Shown here: positions 9,959 through 56,957 of the stretch, piece by piece
Layout: each line of letters begins with the position of its first letter
How positions within the stretch are numbered: the first letter of the stretch is position 1
DNA from: Minisyncoccota bacterium
GTDB taxonomy: Bacteria; Patescibacteriota; Minisyncoccia; UBA6257
Direction of reading: 5' to 3'
Length of the DNA: 64,000 bases
NCBI GenBank assembly: GCA_028695015.1
Contig: JAQVJR010000001.1
Coordinates: 255,297 to 319,296 of the forward strand
Notes under the pieces: model-generated
What the model was told of the DNA's origin: nothing
Seen by the model: only the letters and a program-made list of their open reading frames with translations
The model's database searches: none
Program-made: the position numbers and the translations under genes

Positions 9959-10103
9959 TTTTCTAAAATTGATATTTTACTCTTTTTAATTATATAGAAT
10001 AAATTGATTAATTCAAAGAAAGATTAATCCCTGAACCGATATATTTTAAATTATACCATATTTTACCAAGACTGGCAATAGTAAGTTAATAAGTATTTAA
10101 ATG

Positions 10104-10138: not shown

Positions 10139-10483
10139 CTACCAATATGTAAAATACAAAGTATTACCACCAGGATTTAAGTAGATATGCTGCACATGTG
10201 AAAAGCATGGGCCGCTATCTACTACGTATACTTTAACCATCTGGTTGCATGGCAAATTTTCGAATCGAATATTTGGAGAATATTCAAAATCGATGTATTT
10301 GCCAGTGTTTTGATCATTAAGGTATACATATCCGTATACATTGCTGGTATATGTGGCAATAACAGTCAAACTACATTTAGGGGTAGGTGACGGACAGGTA
10401 ATACAGGGACCACAACAGTAGCACCCATTTAAACAAACCAAGCTAATAAAAATAATTATTAACAAGACAGCTTTATTTTTCAT
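10139..10483 (-). CDS. Small secreted Cys-rich (lipo)protein
   Basis: Signal peptide ending LNGC followed by CYCCGPCITCP. 114 aa, no recognisable domain. Confidence 0.35.
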   Translation of the reverse strand: MKNKAVLLIIIFISLVCLNGCYCCGPCITCPSPTPKCSLTVIATYTSNVYGYVYLNDQNTGKYIDFEYSPNIRFENLPCNQMVKVYVVDSGPCFSHVQHIYLNPGGNTLYFTYW

Positions 10484-10551: not shown

Positions 10552-10580
10552 ATTATAACTATAAAATTATAATTTGTCAA
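10552..10580 (-). promoter_or_regulatory. Sigma-70-type promoter (TTGACA-17-TATAAT) driving the 10139..10483 gene
   Basis: Minus strand reads CTTGACAAATTATAATTTTATAGTTATAAT. A-rich RBS precedes the ATG at 10483. Confidence 0.5.
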
Positions 10581-10613
10581 GTCTACTTAATAATCTTATA
10601 CTAAAAGTTTAAT

Positions 10614-10694
10614 AAAAAAATGCTGCCACCTATTGAAGCAAGCTTCTCTAAGTGACAGCATTCTCAGTATAACAAATGGAAAATATTTGTCAAG
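10614..10694 (-). repeat. Copy A of the promoter-hairpin-U-tract module (also the likely argS terminator)
   Basis: Minus-strand sense: CTTGACAAATATTTTCCATTTGTTATACT-GAG-AATGCTGTCAC[22-nt loop]GTGGCAGCATTTTTTTATTA. About 85% identical to copy B at 56199 in the flanks and stem, with a divergent loop. Confidence 0.55.
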
Positions 10695-10709: not shown

Positions 10710-12446
10710 CTAAATTTCTTTTAAAACTTGAATACCTAATACTTGTAAACCGTTTTTTAAAACCTGGGTAATGATTTGTAAAAGATTTAATTGAGCTTGA
10801 AGGCGATTTTTATTTTCTTCTTTAAGCACCGGGACTGATTCATAGTATTGATTAGATAAATCAGCAAGAGATAATAAATAAGTAGCTAAATAATTTGGTG
10901 CATATTTTTCAGCGCTTAATTCTATTATTTCTGGAAATTCAGATAATTTTTTAATAAGTTGAATTTCCAAAGAACTATTTAATAATAAATAATTTGGTTT
11001 AATGTTTTTAGTTTTTTTAGCTTTAACAAGAATTTTATTTATCCGAGCATAAGTATACTGAAGATAAACACTAGTGTTTCCAGAAAAATCAAGCATTTTA
11101 TCCCAGTCAAAAACAACATCAAGGGCACGAAATGATTTTAAGTCATTAAACTTTAAAGCACCAAGGGCAATAACTTGAGCCAATTCCTCTTGTTTTTTTA
11201 ATGGCCAGTCAGTTTTTTTCTTTTTAACTATATCCAAAGATTTTTCAATTGCTTCATTAATTACTTGATCTAAGGAAATTAACTCACCTTCTCTTGTAGA
11301 AAACTTTTTCTTTTCCGTTGATAAAACTAAGCCAAATTTTACATGAGTTAATTCAGTTTCTTGTTTTGGAAAAAGTATTTTTGCTAAAGTAAAAACTTGT
11401 TTAAAATGCATGTCTTGTTCATTGCCAACAACATAAAGAATTTTTTCTGGTTGGTATTTTTTAAAACGATAAGAAATTAAAGCTAAATCACGAGTAAGAT
11501 ATAAAGAAGCTTCATCTGATTTTTGAATCAGGGCTGGAGGTAGGCCATATTTTTCTAAAGGAATAATTATGGCTCCTTGGCTTTCTTGGGTCAATTCTTT
11601 CTTGTGCAAGGAATCTATTAAAGGAAGGAGATCTTTCTCAAAAAAACTCTCACTAATAAAAAGATCAAATTTAATATTTAAAAGGTTATAGATTTTTTCA
11701 AATTCTTTTAAAGATTCTTTTTTAAACCAAAGCCATATTTTTCTATTTTCTTTATTGCCTTGTTCTAGTTTTTTAAATTCTTGTTGGCCAAATTTTTCTA
11801 ATTCTGGATTCTTTTTTAATTCTTGATGGAATTTTCTGTATAGATGAAGAAGGGTAGTAATAGGCGCTTTTTCGATTTCCTTTTTATTGCCCCAGAGTTT
11901 ATATGCAGCAATTAATTTTCCAAATTGAGTTCCCCAATCACCAAGATAATTCCAGCGAATTACTTGATAACCTAAGCATTCATAAAGATTAGCTAAAGAT
12001 TCACCGATAATCGTTGAACGTAAATGCCCTATATGCATTGGCTTGGCAATATTAGGTGATGAATAATCAATAATAATTTTTTCTTTTTTTCCTTTTTTAG
12101 AAAAACCAAAGGATTCTTTATCTTTAAAAATTTTCTCTAATTGTTTTTGAATAAATATTGGATTAAGGTAAAAATTAATAAAACCATTTCTGGCTATTTC
12201 GATTTTTAATATCTTATTTGGTAATAGTAAATTCATTTCCTTTACTAAAATTTCAGCAATTTCTAAAGGAGATTTTTTAATATCTTTGCTGATTAAAAAA
12301 GCAATGGTAGTACTATAATCTCCAAATTGTTGAATAGTAGGAGTTTCCAAAGGAATGTCATTAATAGATAACAGGGGCCAATTGTTCTTTTTAGCTATTT
12401 TTTTAAAAGATTGATGAATATATTTTTTAATTTCTGATTTGAGCAT
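10710..12446 (-). CDS. argS: Arginine--tRNA ligase
   Basis: SSPNIAKPMHIGHLRST class I HIGH motif and C-terminal DALR-like region. 578 aa. Confidence 0.85.
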   Translation of the reverse strand: MLKSEIKKYIHQSFKKIAKKNNWPLLSINDIPLETPTIQQFGDYSTTIAFLISKDIKKSPLEIAEILVKEMNLLLPNKILKIEIARNGFINFYLNPIFIQKQLEKIFKDKESFGFSKKGKKEKIIIDYSSPNIAKPMHIGHLRSTIIGESLANLYECLGYQVIRWNYLGDWGTQFGKLIAAYKLWGNKKEIEKAPITTLLHLYRKFHQELKKNPELEKFGQQEFKKLEQGNKENRKIWLWFKKESLKEFEKIYNLLNIKFDLFISESFFEKDLLPLIDSLHKKELTQESQGAIIIPLEKYGLPPALIQKSDEASLYLTRDLALISYRFKKYQPEKILYVVGNEQDMHFKQVFTLAKILFPKQETELTHVKFGLVLSTEKKKFSTREGELISLDQVINEAIEKSLDIVKKKKTDWPLKKQEELAQVIALGALKFNDLKSFRALDVVFDWDKMLDFSGNTSVYLQYTYARINKILVKAKKTKNIKPNYLLLNSSLEIQLIKKLSEFPEIIELSAEKYAPNYLATYLLSLADLSNQYYESVPVLKEENKNRLQAQLNLLQIITQVLKNGLQVLGIQVLKEI

Positions 12447-17441: not shown

Positions 17442-17465
17442 GATTTTTGTTAGTTTGCGTATTAA

Positions 17466-17485
17466 AAAACTCCCTTTTTGGGAGA
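17466..17485 (-). promoter_or_regulatory. SD-sequestering hairpin in the leader of the 3D-domain gene
   Basis: Minus-strand TCTCCC-AAAAA-GGGAG followed by TTTTTTAATC-ATG. GGGAG is the only SD-like sequence before the ATG and pairs with CUCCC. A TTGACAAAT box lies ~40 nt upstream. Confidence 0.4.
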
Positions 17486-17646
17486 TAACTGACTTTATTT
17501 TATCATACTATGATTATTTGTCAAGTTTTCAAATCCAAGTTTAAATTTTAAATTTTGTAATAAATTTATTTTTTAAATCCGTTTTTTTATTCAAAAGTTG
17601 CTTTTTGAATTACTTTTAGATAAACTTAATATAAATTATATCTTAA

Positions 17647-20902: not shown

Positions 20903-20979
20903 GGTTGACTTTCTTTTTCATAATATTATAATAAATACAGGTGAGAACTCACTGATAAAATTTTAAATAATTTAAAAAC

Positions 20980-41928: not shown

Positions 41929-41948
41929 TTTCTAATTTTTGACAAAAG

Positions 41949-41977
41949 ATATTTTCTTGGCTATAATGATTACAATT
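41949..41977 (+). promoter_or_regulatory. Consensus sigma-70 promoter (TTGACA-17-TATAAT) about 300 nt upstream of rny
   Basis: TTGACAaaagatattttcttggcTATAAT. Followed by an ORF-free ~300-nt leader before the rny ATG at 42275. Confidence 0.55.
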
Positions 41978-45129: not shown

Positions 45130-45438
45130 TGCCGAGGCGGTGAATCGAACACCGGACGCTTTGCTCTTCCGAATATTCTCTAAATTACTTTAGAGTTTGG
45201 ACTATATCATCACCCTATTTATAGGGGCTGGGCGCTTTGAAGCAAATATTTACTTGCCCCTACTCTTAAAAAAGATAGTCTCTACACCTCCCTATTTGAA
45301 AATTAATTCAATTAGGTTTGGCTCGGAATTGCCCAAGACAATATTTGGGTTTTTCCGATTTCACCCAGTTTGCAATCCATATTACTATGGAATGGCCCAA
45401 AGATTTAGGCAAACGCTCTACCACTGAGCTACCTCGGC
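45130..45438 (-). tRNA. Intron-containing tRNA gene, most likely tRNA-Phe(GAA); exons 45407..45438 and 45130..45169
   Basis: 5' exon (reverse complement) GCCGAGGTAGCTCAGTGGTAGAGCGTTTGCCT. 3' exon GAAGAGCAAAGCGTCCGGTGTTCGATTCACCGCCTCGGCA. Joined, they give a 72-nt tRNA with anticodon stem TTTGC/GCAAA and loop CTGAAGA, plus U20, a GCGUC variable loop and A73 as in tRNA-Phe. Confidence 0.7.
45170..45406 (-). ncRNA. Group I self-splicing intron (IC3-like) in the tRNA anticodon loop between U33 and G34
   Basis: Exon ends in U and intron ends in G. P1: exon GCCU pairs with intron GGGC. P10: 3' exon GAAG pairs with intron CUUU just 5' of the IGS. P2: CCATA-GTAA-TATGG. P7: AGACTAT...ATAGTC. P9: CTCTAAA-GTAA-TTTAGAG. 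GGTGTAGAGACTA and CCGAGCCAAACC blocks match Azoarcus/Anabaena-type tRNA introns. Confidence 0.7.
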
Positions 45439-54440: not shown

Positions 54441-56195
54441 ATGGTTCAAGAAGAATTATTTCTTTCAACGCTTATTCAAAGAGGTTTAATAAAACAAAGT
54501 GAAGCTTCAAGTCTTCTTCAAGAGGCACAAGGCTTAGAAAAGAATGTTGAGGAACTTATCAATGAAAGGAAGTTAGTGGATGAAAAGATTCTCGCCCAAC
54601 TTAAAGGCGAGCTTTTTAATTTACCAATTAAGCAATTTACCAAAGATGAAATTATCCCTCAGAGTATTTTGAATTTAATCCCAGAAGACACAGCTCGTTT
54701 CTACAATGTGATTGCTTTTAATAAAGAGAATAATGTTTTGGAGATAGGAATGGTTTATCCAAATAATTTAAAAGCCCAAGAAGCTTTAAAATTTTCAGCC
54801 AGTCGTTTAAATTTAGATCTTAGGGTTTATATCATCACTTTAACTGATTTAAAAAATATCTTAACCCAGTACCAAACCTTTACTAAAGAATTTAAAGCAT
54901 TAGTAGAGGATTTTCAAAGAAGATTTGCCGGAGTACCTAAAAAAACAGCTACTTTTAAATTAATAGACTTAGAATCTACTGCTGGTGCTGTAGCTGAAGA
55001 AGCACCTATTATTAGGCTTTTTGCTTCAATTTTAAAATTTGCTGTGCGCTCTAGAGCTTCTGATATTCATATTGAGCCAGAAAGAAATAAATTAAGAGTT
55101 AGGTTACGTGTTGATGGTAATTTAACTACAACCTTAACATTGCCTTTTGCTGTTCATTCGGCAATTGTTAGTCGGGTAAAGATAATGGCTAACTTAAAGA
55201 TTGATGAAACAAGAATACCTCAAGATGGGCGTTTTTTCTCAATGATAGATGAAAAAGAAATTGATTTTAGGATTTCAACATTTCCTACAGCCCTAGGGGA
55301 GAAGATAGCTATTAGAATTTTAGACCCCACAGTGGGTTTAAAAAGCATTCATGAATTAGGTCTTGAGGGAAGAAATTTGGAAATTTTACAATCAGAAATT
55401 TTAAAACCTTATGGGATGATTTTAATTACTGGACCTACAGGCTCTGGTAAAACAACGACTCTTTATGCATTAATGCAGATTTTAAATCAAGATAAAGTTA
55501 ATGTTATGAGTTTAGAAGATCCAGTAGAATACACTATGGAAGGAATTAATCAATCTCAGGTTTTGCCAGAAATTGGCTATACTTTTGCCAGGGGATTGCG
55601 TCATATGGTGCGTCAAGACCCAGATATTATAATGGTTGGGGAAATTCGAGACACAGAAACAGCAGAATTAGCAGTTCATTCTGCTTTAACTGGACATCTG
55701 GTTCTTTCAACCTTGCATACTAATAATGCTATTGGGGTTATCCCTCGTTTATTAGATTTAGATGTTGATTCTTATTTATTACCTTCTTCTTTAAATTTAA
55801 TGGTTGCTCAGCGTTTGGCTAGAAGATTATGTCCTGAATGCAAGAAAAAGGTCTTGGCTACAGAAAAAGAACAACAAATTATTGAAGAATCTCTATCTGC
55901 TTTATCAAAAGAAGCCAAGGAAAAATTATCTTTTCAAAAACCTTATCATGTATATAAAACCAAAGGCTGTCCAACTTGCAACAATAAAGGGTATATGGGT
56001 AGGGTAGCTATTTTTGAGGTAATGAGAATGACTCCTGAATTAGAGCAAATAATTTTATCTCAACCTTCACAAGAAAGGCTTTTTGCCGAGGCTAAGAGAC
56101 AAGGAATGATTACCTTACAACAAGATGGAGTATTAAAAGCATTAGCAGGATTAGTAAGCTTAGAAGAAATTCTTTCTATAACTTCAAGGTATTAA
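54441..56195 (+). CDS. pilB: Type IV pilus assembly ATPase PilB (GspE family)
   Basis: N-terminal GspE_N domains, Walker A GPTGSGKTTT, tetracysteine CPEC...CPTC zinc motif. 584 aa. Confidence 0.85.
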   Translation: MVQEELFLSTLIQRGLIKQSEASSLLQEAQGLEKNVEELINERKLVDEKILAQLKGELFNLPIKQFTKDEIIPQSILNLIPEDTARFYNVIAFNKENNVLEIGMVYPNNLKAQEALKFSASRLNLDLRVYIITLTDLKNILTQYQTFTKEFKALVEDFQRRFAGVPKKTATFKLIDLESTAGAVAEEAPIIRLFASILKFAVRSRASDIHIEPERNKLRVRLRVDGNLTTTLTLPFAVHSAIVSRVKIMANLKIDETRIPQDGRFFSMIDEKEIDFRISTFPTALGEKIAIRILDPTVGLKSIHELGLEGRNLEILQSEILKPYGMILITGPTGSGKTTTLYALMQILNQDKVNVMSLEDPVEYTMEGINQSQVLPEIGYTFARGLRHMVRQDPDIIMVGEIRDTETAELAVHSALTGHLVLSTLHTNNAIGVIPRLLDLDVDSYLLPSSLNLMVAQRLARRLCPECKKKVLATEKEQQIIEESLSALSKEAKEKLSFQKPYHVYKTKGCPTCNNKGYMGRVAIFEVMRMTPELEQIILSQPSQERLFAEAKRQGMITLQQDGVLKALAGLVSLEEILSITSRY

Positions 56196-56198
56196 ATT

Positions 56199-56276
56199 CC
56201 TTGACAAACTTTTTTCATTTGATATACTATTAATGCTGTCGTTTTTGGCTTGCCAGAAGCGGCAGCATTTTTTATT
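56199..56276 (+). repeat. Copy B of the promoter-hairpin-U-tract module (also the likely pilB terminator)
   Basis: CTTGACAAACTTTTTTCATTTGATATACT-ATT-AATGCTGTCG[18-nt loop]CGGCAGCATTTTTTATTA. Matches copy A at 10614..10694 at about 31 of the 36 upstream positions and in both stem arms. Confidence 0.55.
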
Positions 56277-56286
56277 ACCTTCCCTC

Positions 56287-56315
56287 TTGACAAATCAAAT
56301 CTAAAGATGTATACT
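56287..56315 (+). promoter_or_regulatory. Sigma-70-type promoter (TTGACA-17-TATACT) for the lipoprotein gene 56372
   Basis: TTGACAaatcaaatctaaagatgTATACT, then AAAGGAGCAAAAAGA-ATG with an SD. Confidence 0.5.
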
Positions 56316-56371: not shown

Positions 56372-56818
56372 ATGAAAATGAATAGAATGTTTCTTGTTTT
56401 AATGTTAGTAATTTTTTTACTAACAGGATGTAGTGGTAATGGAGTAATTCCTCCTCCAGTAGAAGAGCCACCAGTAGAGATAATAGAAGAAATAGTTGAG
56501 AGGTTTGTTGGTACATGGCTAAATGTGGATAAAAATACAGACAATGTAACCAAGATTGTTATAGCGGAAATTGATAATTATTTATCTATAAGAGTATGGG
56601 GGAAGTGTCATCCTGATGACTGTGATTGGGGGAAAAAATTTATAAAGAAAAACGAAGTAATGGATGGAGTAATAAAGTTAACTTGGCTGTTTTCAGGAAC
56701 AGAAGTTGTGCAAGAAATTATTTTACTAAATGATCCCAATGGCAGGATTAATGTAAAATACGATTATAATTATTTAGGAATAGAGTCTAATGTAACAGAA
56801 GCAATGTACAAGTCATAA
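56372..56818 (+). CDS. Secreted lipoprotein of unknown function
   Basis: Signal peptide with LLTGC lipobox. Pro/Glu-rich linker. CHPDDCDWG Cys pair. Confidence 0.4.
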   Translation: MKMNRMFLVLMLVIFLLTGCSGNGVIPPPVEEPPVEIIEEIVERFVGTWLNVDKNTDNVTKIVIAEIDNYLSIRVWGKCHPDDCDWGKKFIKKNEVMDGVIKLTWLFSGTEVVQEIILLNDPNGRINVKYDYNYLGIESNVTEAMYKS

Positions 56819-56862: not shown

Positions 56863-56957
56863 TTCCTTACTCAAGACTTGACCCAATATCTTATAAAGGT
56901 ATAATAAATAGAGGCTCTAAAAGAGAGGTTTTTATAAAATTTATAATAAATAAATAC

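What the first reader, a model, noticed from the sequence alone, without database searches (positions are those of the whole stretch)
10614..10694. Conserved ~80-nt promoter-hairpin-U-tract module present twice, each upstream of a second promoter and a lipoprotein gene (copy A)
Minus-strand sequence reads CTTGACAAATATTTTCCATTTGTTATACT, then a 10-bp stem AATGCTGTCAC/GTGGCAGCATT around a 22-nt loop, then UUUUUUU. It lies 16 nt after the argS stop. Copy B at 56199..56276 is ~85% identical in the 36-nt upstream block and in both stem arms, but its loop is completely different. Conserved flanks and stem with a free loop argue for selection on an RNA hairpin, not chance terminator similarity. The upstream block is a good sigma-70 promoter (TTGACA-16-TATACT) whose +1 falls at the hairpin base. 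A ~45-55-nt hairpin RNA could therefore be made on its own. In both copies a second promoter (TTGACAAAT-17-TATAAT/TATACT) follows within ~40 nt, and then a gene for a small secreted Cys-containing lipoprotein (10139..10483 and 56372..56818). Candidate interpretations are a small RNA family, a conserved attenuator or insulator module, or a repeated terminator carrying a DNA-uptake-like sequence (ComF and T4P genes are present).
Basis: seen in the sequence. Interest (0 to 1): 0.65.

Follow-up and report, generated by a model that had tools for sequence, protein, structure and literature searches.

The report
Self-terminating hairpin RNA gene family
The two repeats belong to a large, apparently undescribed family of tiny genes in one group of ultra-small (CPR) bacteria: a strong promoter fires straight into a conserved hairpin terminator, so each should make a 40-60-nt hairpin RNA whose role is unknown.

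Summary

The two window copies belong to a family found only in relatives of this CPR bacterium (Paceibacterota/"Pacebacteria"). A covariance model finds 137 copies in 634 kb of related DNA, with at least 5-6 per genome and up to 5 in 11.5 kb.

Promoter and hairpin are inseparable. A scan for the hairpin alone found the promoter at a fixed 4-nt distance in 13 of 13 loci. All 116 promoters of this type are followed by the hairpin.

Three hairpin length classes show compensatory changes (94-98% of cells paired). G·U pairs are frequent, which places the structure in the sense-strand RNA.

Copies persist at the same site across species, for example right after pilB or back-to-back with a 23S rRNA promoter. 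Some sit where no co-oriented downstream gene exists.

Best reading: an independent, multi-copy small hairpin RNA gene that also terminates the upstream gene. The lipoprotein link is a statistical tendency only. The DNA-uptake-sequence idea is rejected. About a quarter of copies carry a perfect DnaA box at about -46, unexplained. No expression data exist, and the RNA's function is inferred.

The parts
10666..10694 (-). Copy A promoter P1: C-TTGACA(10693..10688)-16 nt with TG-TATACT(10671..10666)
   Evidence: 11/12 match, extended -10. The same block lies at fixed distance before every family hairpin.
10621..10661 (-). Copy A hairpin, 41-nt class: AUGCUGUCACUUA-GA-GAAG[CUUG]CUUC-AA-UAGGUGGCAGCA. 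Predicted start at G10659, 7 nt after the -10 and preceded by a pyrimidine.
   Evidence: -27.0 kcal/mol, z -6.8. Covariation in 28 distinct 41-nt members. The start site is inferred, not measured.
10614..10620 (-). Copy A U7 tract; with the hairpin it forms an intrinsic terminator
   Evidence: second strongest terminator-like hairpin in the window
10552..10581 (-). P2 of copy A: C-TTGACA-17-TATAAT, the lipoprotein gene's own promoter. It is context, not part of the family unit.
   Evidence: 12/12. Across the family P2 lies at variable distance and is often absent.
10139..10483 (-). 114-aa lipoprotein gene downstream of copy A (lipobox LNGC); context
   Evidence: no Pfam family. The orthologue keeps an A-type module upstream in L004 and L007 but not in L005.
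10710..12446 (-). argS, whose transcript must end at the copy A hairpin because no other terminator fits in the 15 nt before P1
56200..56228 (+). Copy B promoter P1: C-TTGACA(56201..56206)-16 nt with TG-TATACT(56223..56228)
56233..56267 (+). Copy B hairpin, 35-nt class: AUGCUGUCGUUUUUGG[CUUG]CCAGAAGCGGCAGCA, 16 pairs
   Evidence: Covariation in 15 distinct 35-nt members. An identical hairpin occurs in L005, a relative with 80% ArgS identity.
56268..56273 (+). Copy B U6 tract
56287..56315 (+). P2 of copy B (TTGACA-17-TATACT); context
56372..56818 (+). 148-aa lipoprotein gene downstream of copy B (lipobox LTGC); context
54441..56195 (+). pilB (T2SSE ATPase), whose stop lies 4-5 nt before copy B. 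A module at this position is kept in other genomes.

Best explanation
Each copy is a complete, very small transcription unit. It has a near-consensus sigma-70 promoter (TTGACA, 16-17 nt spacer, TG-extended TATACT or TATAAT). Four bases further on begins a 16-24-pair hairpin capped by a G-CUUG-C tetraloop, followed at once by U5-9, which together form an intrinsic terminator.

RNA polymerase starting at P1 would probably begin at the conserved G of R-Y-G, 7 nt after the -10. It would release a 40-60-nt RNA that is almost nothing but this hairpin plus a U tail. Because most copies sit just after a co-oriented gene, the same hairpin also ends that gene's transcript.

The unit is one member of a multi-copy 'sibling' family confined to one clade of CPR bacteria.

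Shown here: the anatomy, the obligate promoter-hairpin coupling, selection on sense-strand RNA pairing, multi-copy status, and persistence at orthologous sites.

Inferred: that P1 fires, where it starts, and that termination is efficient.

Most speculative step: what the RNA does. It has no single-stranded seed, yet its loop and stem base are conserved. I therefore think it more likely acts by being bound, as a protein-binding or decoy RNA, than by pairing with mRNAs. In about a quarter of copies a DnaA box at about -46 would tie its synthesis to DnaA.
For: Promoter and hairpin are inseparable.
- A genome scan with a pattern that specified only the hairpin found 13 loci in 5 CPR MAGs. All 13 carry the promoter, with 4 nt between the -10 and the hairpin.
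- In 544 kb of family loci, 116 of 116 promoters of this type are followed by a family hairpin. 119 of 121 CUUG-capped hairpins with a U tract have the promoter.
- This promoter type is not found in front of the window's 18 tRNA genes.

The structure is selected in the sense RNA.
- 41-nt class: 98.3% of cells paired, 6 of 17 pairs with changes on both sides, 50 such cells, 0 of 500 shuffles reach this.
- The 35-nt and 57-nt classes give the same picture.
- 72 of 476 cells are G·U, which would be mismatches on the other strand.

The unit is independent of its neighbours.
- Module-hosting intergenic regions are co-oriented, convergent or divergent in the same proportions as all intergenic regions: 68/12/6 against a background of 79%/11%/10%.
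- 24 copies face a convergent gene.
- In L072 and four related contigs the module lies back-to-back with the 23S rRNA promoter, so only P1 can transcribe it. Promoter and hairpin stay intact there, and L171 differs from the others by compensatory changes.
- The hairpin of L005 is identical to window copy B at 80% ArgS identity, while the promoter differs at 7 of 32 positions.

Promoter strength and copy number.
- Only 9 promoters scoring at least 11/12 exist on both strands of the window. Two of them are the P1s.
- The covariance model R1 finds 137 matches of at least 42 bits in 634 kb, clearly separated from noise.
- No Rfam family matches.
Against: There are no expression data, so no 5' or 3' end has been mapped.

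A strong bias also suggests that terminating the upstream gene could be the selected function, with the RNA a by-product:
- Inside co-oriented regions, 63 copies point with the genes and 5 against.
- The stop codon often lies only -4 to +20 nt before the -35.

A perfect hairpin with no free seed is an unusual regulatory RNA. No binding partner or target has been identified.

Conservation of TTGACA, TTTG, TATAMT and RYGCTG in the metagenome set is partly imposed by the search pattern. Pattern-independent evidence for the promoter rests on the 13 genome loci and on extra copies found inside fetched loci.

Presence and orientation next to argS differ among close relatives, which also fits a mobile repeat.
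Confidence: 0.55

Rival explanations
1. A promoter-carrying terminator cassette that works at the level of transcription, not through its RNA. The very stable hairpin insulates neighbouring, strongly expressed genes. P1 either keeps polymerase loaded nearby for hand-over to P2 or modulates termination. The short RNA is a by-product.
For: - 63 of 68 copies in co-oriented regions point with the genes, and many abut the upstream stop codon.
- 35 of 51 copies with a co-oriented downstream gene are followed within about 13-80 nt by a promoter scoring at least 11/12.
- Four of the window's nine near-consensus promoters are P1/P2 pairs, and two more belong to the next genes downstream.
- Downstream genes are enriched for secreted proteins and lipoproteins.
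- Functional interplay of adjacent terminators and promoters has been reported, in the opposite order (bioRxiv 10.64898/2026.08.19.745784).
Against: - It does not explain why the loop (GCUUGC in all but one of the 61 distinct hairpins listed) and the stem base stay constant while the middle of the stem covaries.
- It does not explain why P1 is kept where no co-oriented gene follows (24 copies; the rRNA-divergent locus).
- It does not explain why P2, itself often 12/12, would need help.
Confidence: 0.2
2. A regulated promoter-proximal terminator of the lambda pR'-tR' type. P1 is constitutive and normally yields only the short RNA. A factor that recognises the conserved promoter spacer or the initial transcript makes polymerase read through into the downstream genes.
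For: - The spacer between -35 and -10 is unusually conserved (AA..TTT...TTTGC), also in the pattern-independent genome set.
- The spacing from promoter to hairpin is fixed.
- About 75% of copies have a co-oriented downstream gene.
- A DnaA box at about -46 in 21 of 93 copies shows that some copies carry a factor site.
Against: - Copies are spread over convergent, divergent and co-oriented intergenic regions exactly as the background is.
- Most downstream genes have their own strong promoter.
- No candidate antiterminator gene is linked to the arrays examined.
Confidence: 0.1
3. A selfish or passively spreading intergenic repeat, like REP, MITE or Correia-type elements, that happens to contain promoter-like and terminator-like sequence.
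For: - The family is multi-copy and clustered: 5 copies in 11.5 kb in L095 and 5 in about 6 kb in L157.
- Presence and orientation beside argS change among relatives with 70-93% ArgS identity.
- Copies within one genome share genome-specific promoter variants and upstream flanks.
Against: - There are no terminal inverted repeats beyond the hairpin and no conserved 3' flank or target duplication. The CTTGACAAAT repeat in the window is P2's -35, and it lies at variable distance elsewhere.
- No transposase or integrase was found among the ten array genes searched against Pfam.
- Copies are stable at orthologous sites across species, with compensatory evolution.
- G·U pairs point to RNA-level selection.
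- Local similarity within arrays is explained by tandem duplication of gene plus module.
Confidence: 0.1
4. A DNA-level signal: a DNA uptake sequence arranged as an inverted repeat, or an integron attC-like recombination site.
For:
- Arrays of small genes each followed by a hairpin look superficially like cassette arrays.
Against: - The 8-mer ATGCTGTC occurs 3 times in 64 kb, whereas uptake sequences occur about once per kb (the density figure is general knowledge).
- There are no GTTRRRY/RYYYAAC cores and no integrase in the arrays.
- Pairing is strand-specific, with 15% G·U.
- The hairpin is always tied to a promoter.
Confidence: 0.02

Closest known systems
Rho-independent (intrinsic) terminators
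   Same: A stable stem-loop is followed directly by a U tract. Most copies lie just downstream of a co-oriented gene, and these are the strongest such hairpins in the window.
   Different: Ordinary terminators are not preceded at a fixed 4 nt by a consensus promoter. They also do not keep the same loop and stem base across unrelated loci and species.
Multi-copy 'sibling' small RNA genes, such as csRNAs, Qrr, LhrC and cyanobacterial Yfr2 (recalled from general knowledge; not compared by sequence beyond Rfam)
   Same: Several to many paralogous short genes per genome, each with a conserved promoter and its own terminator.
   Different: Those RNAs have single-stranded seed regions upstream of the terminator. 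Here the whole RNA is the terminator hairpin. No Rfam family matches; the best is csRNA at 21 bits against a threshold of 57.
Lambda pR'-tR' unit (short '6S' transcript, Q antitermination; general knowledge)
   Same: A constitutive strong promoter is followed closely by a terminator. The default product is a short RNA, and there is a conserved element inside the promoter spacer.
   Different: No Q-like gene is known here. The units are multi-copy and chromosomal, and a quarter have no co-oriented downstream gene.
Intergenic hairpin repeats such as REP/BIME, Correia, BOX and RUP (general knowledge)
   Same: Multi-copy, intergenic, hairpin-forming, often at gene 3' ends, and sometimes with terminator or promoter activity.
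   Different: There are no TIR/TSD signatures and no linked transposase. Copies persist at orthologous sites, and covariation with G·U pairs indicates RNA-level selection.
Promoter-coupled terminators (Fletcher et al., bioRxiv 10.64898/2026.08.19.745784)
   Same: Terminators and promoters of adjacent units are packed together and may influence each other. This is relevant to the hairpin-then-P2 arrangement.
   Different: In that work the terminator overlaps the downstream promoter, with the 3' end about 10 bp before the next start. Here the defining promoter lies upstream of the hairpin and fires into it.

Membership tests
Intrinsic terminator | G+C-containing stem-loop immediately followed by a run of U | tested here: met
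   16-24 pairs, -17 to -32 kcal/mol, U5-9 directly after the stem
Intrinsic terminator | Lies at the 3' end of a transcription unit, in the sense orientation | tested here: met
   The upstream gene is co-oriented in 86 of 100 cases. Inside co-oriented regions 63 copies are sense and 5 antisense.
Intrinsic terminator | Actually stops RNA polymerase | not testable with these tools
   Needs Term-seq or in vitro transcription.
Independent small RNA gene | Own promoter at a fixed place relative to the RNA | tested here: met
   13/13, 116/116 and 119/121. This is a sequence-level test only.
Independent small RNA gene | Conserved secondary structure supported by compensatory changes | tested here: met
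Independent small RNA gene | Conserved where no flanking gene can supply or use the transcript | tested here: met
   The locus divergent from the rRNA promoter, and the convergent loci.
Independent small RNA gene | A detectable transcript of the predicted size | not testable with these tools
   No RNA data are available.
Any Rfam 15 family | Score at or above the family's gathering threshold | tested here: not met
   the best are sau-53 at 17 bits (threshold 100) and csRNA at 21 bits (threshold 57)
DNA uptake sequence (DUS/USS) | Short motif over-represented genome-wide, roughly once per kb | tested here: not met
   3 occurrences in 64 kb against 0.9 expected
MITE/REP-like mobile repeat | Terminal inverted repeats and target-site duplication, or a conserved element boundary | tested here: not met
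   There is no conserved 3' flank. The flanking CTTGACAAAT repeat is P2's -35, at variable distance.
MITE/REP-like mobile repeat | Cognate transposase or RAYT in the genome | tested here: inconclusive
   None was found among the array genes examined, but whole genomes were not searched. An IS-like HTH fragment lies next to the L005 copy.
Integron attC | R''/R' core sites (RYYYAAC / GTTRRRY) and a nearby IntI integrase | tested here: not met
   The consensus lacks these cores, and the arrays hold no integrase.
Lambda Q-type antitermination unit | A linked antiterminator protein and read-through transcripts | not tested
   No candidate gene was seen in the arrays. Read-through cannot be assessed without RNA data.

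The most novel reading that the evidence does not exclude
The hairpin RNAs are an abundant effector class that is new for bacteria: double-stranded, 5'-triphosphate, U-tailed RNAs made from the strongest promoters of an episymbiotic CPR cell. They may be partly under DnaA control through the box at about -46. They would act as decoys for an RNA-binding protein or nuclease.

Alternatively, they could be mimics of the 16S rRNA helix-6 (V1) hairpin, whose apex GAAGCUUGCUUC (E. coli sequence, recalled from memory) is identical to that of copy A. A role in the interaction with the host cell is also possible.
Probability: 0.15. Interest if true: 0.8.

Novelty: new variant of a known kind. Interest (0 to 1): 0.6.

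Why it matters
Almost nothing is known about non-coding RNA or transcription signals in CPR/Patescibacteria, which cannot be grown alone.

This family offers three things:
- A clean, testable set of promoter and terminator sequences for these organisms.
- A candidate abundant small RNA with an unusual design, in which the RNA is only a terminator hairpin.
- An unexpected link to DnaA boxes and to the rRNA promoter region.

If the RNA has a partner protein, that would be a new regulatory axis in reduced genomes. If it has none, the family is a natural example of a conserved promoter-into-terminator cassette, and it bears on how compact genomes insulate neighbouring genes.

Tried and rejected
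- Wrong spacer. My first collection pattern had 13 N instead of 12. The viral scan returned only an unrelated phage promoter family. It did reveal a 17-nt-spacer variant in L007.
- Viral contigs hold no true copies. The hairpin-only pattern hit 39 contigs, 36 of them one unrelated phage sequence family, and none is followed by a U tract.
- Leaderless mini-ORF starting at the AUG of AUGCUG: rejected. GUG, ACG and GCG variants occur, the length classes are not in frame, and there is no stop before the terminator.
- Generic promoter type for stable RNAs: rejected. The tRNA upstream regions lack it.
- Similarity of the hairpin to the 23S/5S rRNA of a family genome: nothing beyond 10-mers.
- No 16S gene is present in any fetched locus, so the 16S helix-6 resemblance could not be tested.
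- Relatives at 61% ArgS identity (L187, L188; 21 kb each): no module, and no other promoter-hairpin-U unit. The sample is too small to set the clade boundary.
- Full-text literature searches found no description of this element.

Full report
**What is in the window**

On the minus strand, 15 nt after the argS stop, the sequence reads C-TTGACA-16 nt-TATACT (10694..10666). Four bases further on lies a 41-nt hairpin (10661..10621), followed by T7 (10620..10614).

On the plus strand, 4 nt after the pilB stop, lies the same arrangement:
- promoter 56200..56228
- 35-nt hairpin 56233..56267
- T6 56268..56273

Chance does not explain the pair. The 29-nt promoter block, allowing up to 3 mismatches, occurs exactly twice. 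So does the arm pattern. Neither occurs in any of 100 shuffles.

Both sequences fold as long, nearly perfect hairpins, at -27.0 and -24.9 kcal/mol with z about -6.8. Both have the same apical CUUG tetraloop closed by G-C. The supposedly different loops are stem that differs by compensatory changes. These are the second and third strongest terminator-like hairpins in the window.

A second near-consensus promoter and a lipoprotein gene follow in both copies.

**Origin**

ArgS identifies the organism as a CPR bacterium. Named relatives are "Candidatus Pacebacteria", Paceibacterota and Patescibacteria. The contig is in NCBI assembly GCA_040364315.1. G+C is 31%, and the 64 kb hold 18 scattered tRNA genes.

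**Relatives**

- L004 (93% ArgS identity) keeps copy A in place. Its two stem substitutions are C-G to U-G and U-G to U-A.
- L007 (77%) has the A-type unit directly upstream of the orthologous lipoprotein gene, but far from argS. It also has a third variant on the other strand.
- L005 (80%) lacks it upstream of the lipoprotein operon. It carries a unit whose hairpin is identical to window copy B, convergent with argS and with no gene downstream.
- L189 (70%) also has a unit convergent with argS.

**Collection scans**

The first scan used a pattern that specified only the hairpin (ATGCTGTC..GCTTGC..GGCRGCATTTTT).
- It found 13 loci in 5 CPR MAGs among 185,579 species genomes, with 5 hits in each of two MAGs.
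- All 13 have the promoter, with 4 nt between the -10 and the hairpin.

The second scan used a pattern that specified only the promoter plus RYGCTG.
- All but the clear chance matches carry a hairpin of 35-57 nt with the GCUUGC apex and U5-9.

In 544 kb of family loci:
- 116 of 116 promoters of this type precede a family hairpin.
- 119 of 121 CUUG-capped hairpins with a U tract have the promoter.

Covariance model R1 finds only the two copies in the window. In 634 kb it finds 137 matches of at least 42 bits, well separated from reverse-strand echoes. Viral contigs contain none. Rfam has no matching family. Full-text searches found no description.

**Structure**

Gapless alignments of distinct hairpins gave these counts:

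| Class | Cells paired | Pairs changed on both sides | Cells with such changes |
|---|---|---|---|
| 41 nt | 98.3% | 6 of 17 | 50 |
| 35 nt | 97.9% | 3 of 16 | 9 |
| 57 nt | 94.2% | 6 of 24 | 21 |

In each class, 0 of 500 shuffles reach the observed percentage paired, cell count or covariation score. Slid registers collapse to 30-69% paired.

In the 41-nt class, 72 of 476 cells are G·U and only 8 are unpaired. The pairing is therefore specific to the promoter-sense strand, which means RNA. The base of the stem can also covary: AUGCCG...CGGCAU occurs.

**Context**

Module-hosting intergenic regions number 68 co-oriented, 12 convergent and 6 divergent. That matches the background of 79%, 11% and 10%. 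Inside co-oriented regions, however, 63 units point with the genes and 5 against.

The upstream stop codon is often only -4 to +20 nt from the -35, so the hairpin must also terminate that gene. Where the gap is longer, the upstream gene has its own terminator.

Downstream genes:
- They are co-oriented in about 75% of cases.
- 35 of 51 have their own promoter scoring at least 11/12.
- Their products are enriched for signal-peptide or TM-like N-termini: 30/55 against 156/473, p = 0.003.
- Lipoboxes are also enriched: 7/55 against 8/473.
- They also include ParA, radical-SAM, M16 peptidase and GT2 enzymes.

No integrase or transposase lies in the arrays examined.

**Orthologous persistence**

A unit sits immediately after pilB in the window, L059 and L062, although the downstream neighbour differs.

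In five contigs a unit lies back-to-back with the promoter of a 23S-5S operon. There only P1 can transcribe it. L171 differs from the others by compensatory changes.

**Interpretation**

The simplest account that covers all of this has four parts:
- It is a tiny independent gene for a hairpin RNA of about 40-60 nt.
- It is made from one of the strongest promoters in the genome. Only 9 promoters scoring at least 11/12 exist in the window.
- It ends at its own hairpin.
- The hairpin doubles as the upstream gene's terminator.

The start site is inferred. It would be the G of the conserved R-Y-G, 7 nt after the -10. The function of the RNA is unknown. Its lack of a single-stranded seed, together with its constant loop and stem base, points to recognition by a protein rather than antisense action.

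I rank the rivals below this account, for the reasons given under each:
- a cassette that acts on transcription only
- a lambda pR'-tR'-like regulated terminator
- a selfish repeat

A DNA-uptake sequence is excluded.

**Unexplained**

21 of 93 unique units, from different genomes and hairpin classes, have a perfect DnaA box (TTATCCACA) on the same strand. It ends 6 nt before the -35. These account for most of the 33 perfect boxes in the 544 kb. The window copies lack it.

The apex GAAGCUUGCUUC equals the E. coli 16S V1 apex. I recall this from memory, and it could not be tested because no 16S gene is in hand.

Noticed in passing
window 45130..45438 (-): A tRNA-Phe(GAA) gene is split by a group I intron. 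The 5' exon ends at U33 (45407). The Rfam Intron_gpI match spans 45178..45416 at 93.9 bits. The 3' exon GAAGAGCAAAG... starts at 45169. ARAGORN did not report this tRNA.
   Followed up: partly
window 17464..17524 (-): A near-consensus promoter is followed by a short CUCCC-AAAAA-GGGAG hairpin plus U6, about 30 nt before the ATG of a 177-aa gene. The same leader is conserved in relatives down to 61% ArgS identity (L187, L188, L189, L007). It is a different promoter-hairpin-U arrangement, possibly an attenuator or an SD-sequestering leader.
   Followed up: partly
family loci, e.g. L067 763-771 and 1609-1617; L176 ~10430 and ~14255: A perfect DnaA box TTATCCACA lies at a fixed position (about -50..-42) upstream of P1 in 21 of 93 unique modules. 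These make up most of the perfect DnaA boxes in 544 kb of family DNA. The box is absent from the two window copies.
   Followed up: partly
L072 5991-10230 (also L058, L068, L171, L184): A family module lies divergent from the promoter of a 23S-5S rRNA operon, with about 27 nt between the two -35 boxes. The 23S gene spans 3.7 kb, so it carries insertions. No 16S gene is linked.
   Followed up: partly
window 10050..10078 (-), 56878..56905 (+), 41939..41967 (+), 20905..20932 (+): Only nine sigma-70 matches of at least 11/12 exist on both strands of the 64 kb. Six of them cluster at the two module loci: P1, P2 and the next gene's promoter in each.
   Followed up: yes
L005 5930-6088: A 52-aa ORF with a helix-turn-helix-like sequence, possibly a remnant of an insertion-sequence transposase, lies next to the B-type module that is convergent with argS. 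It hints at local rearrangement.
   Followed up: no
L095 2467-3848 and L067 203-1584: Tandem paralogous genes for small membrane or secreted proteins (178 and 190 aa) are each followed by its own module. This shows that gene-plus-module units duplicate together.
   Followed up: partly
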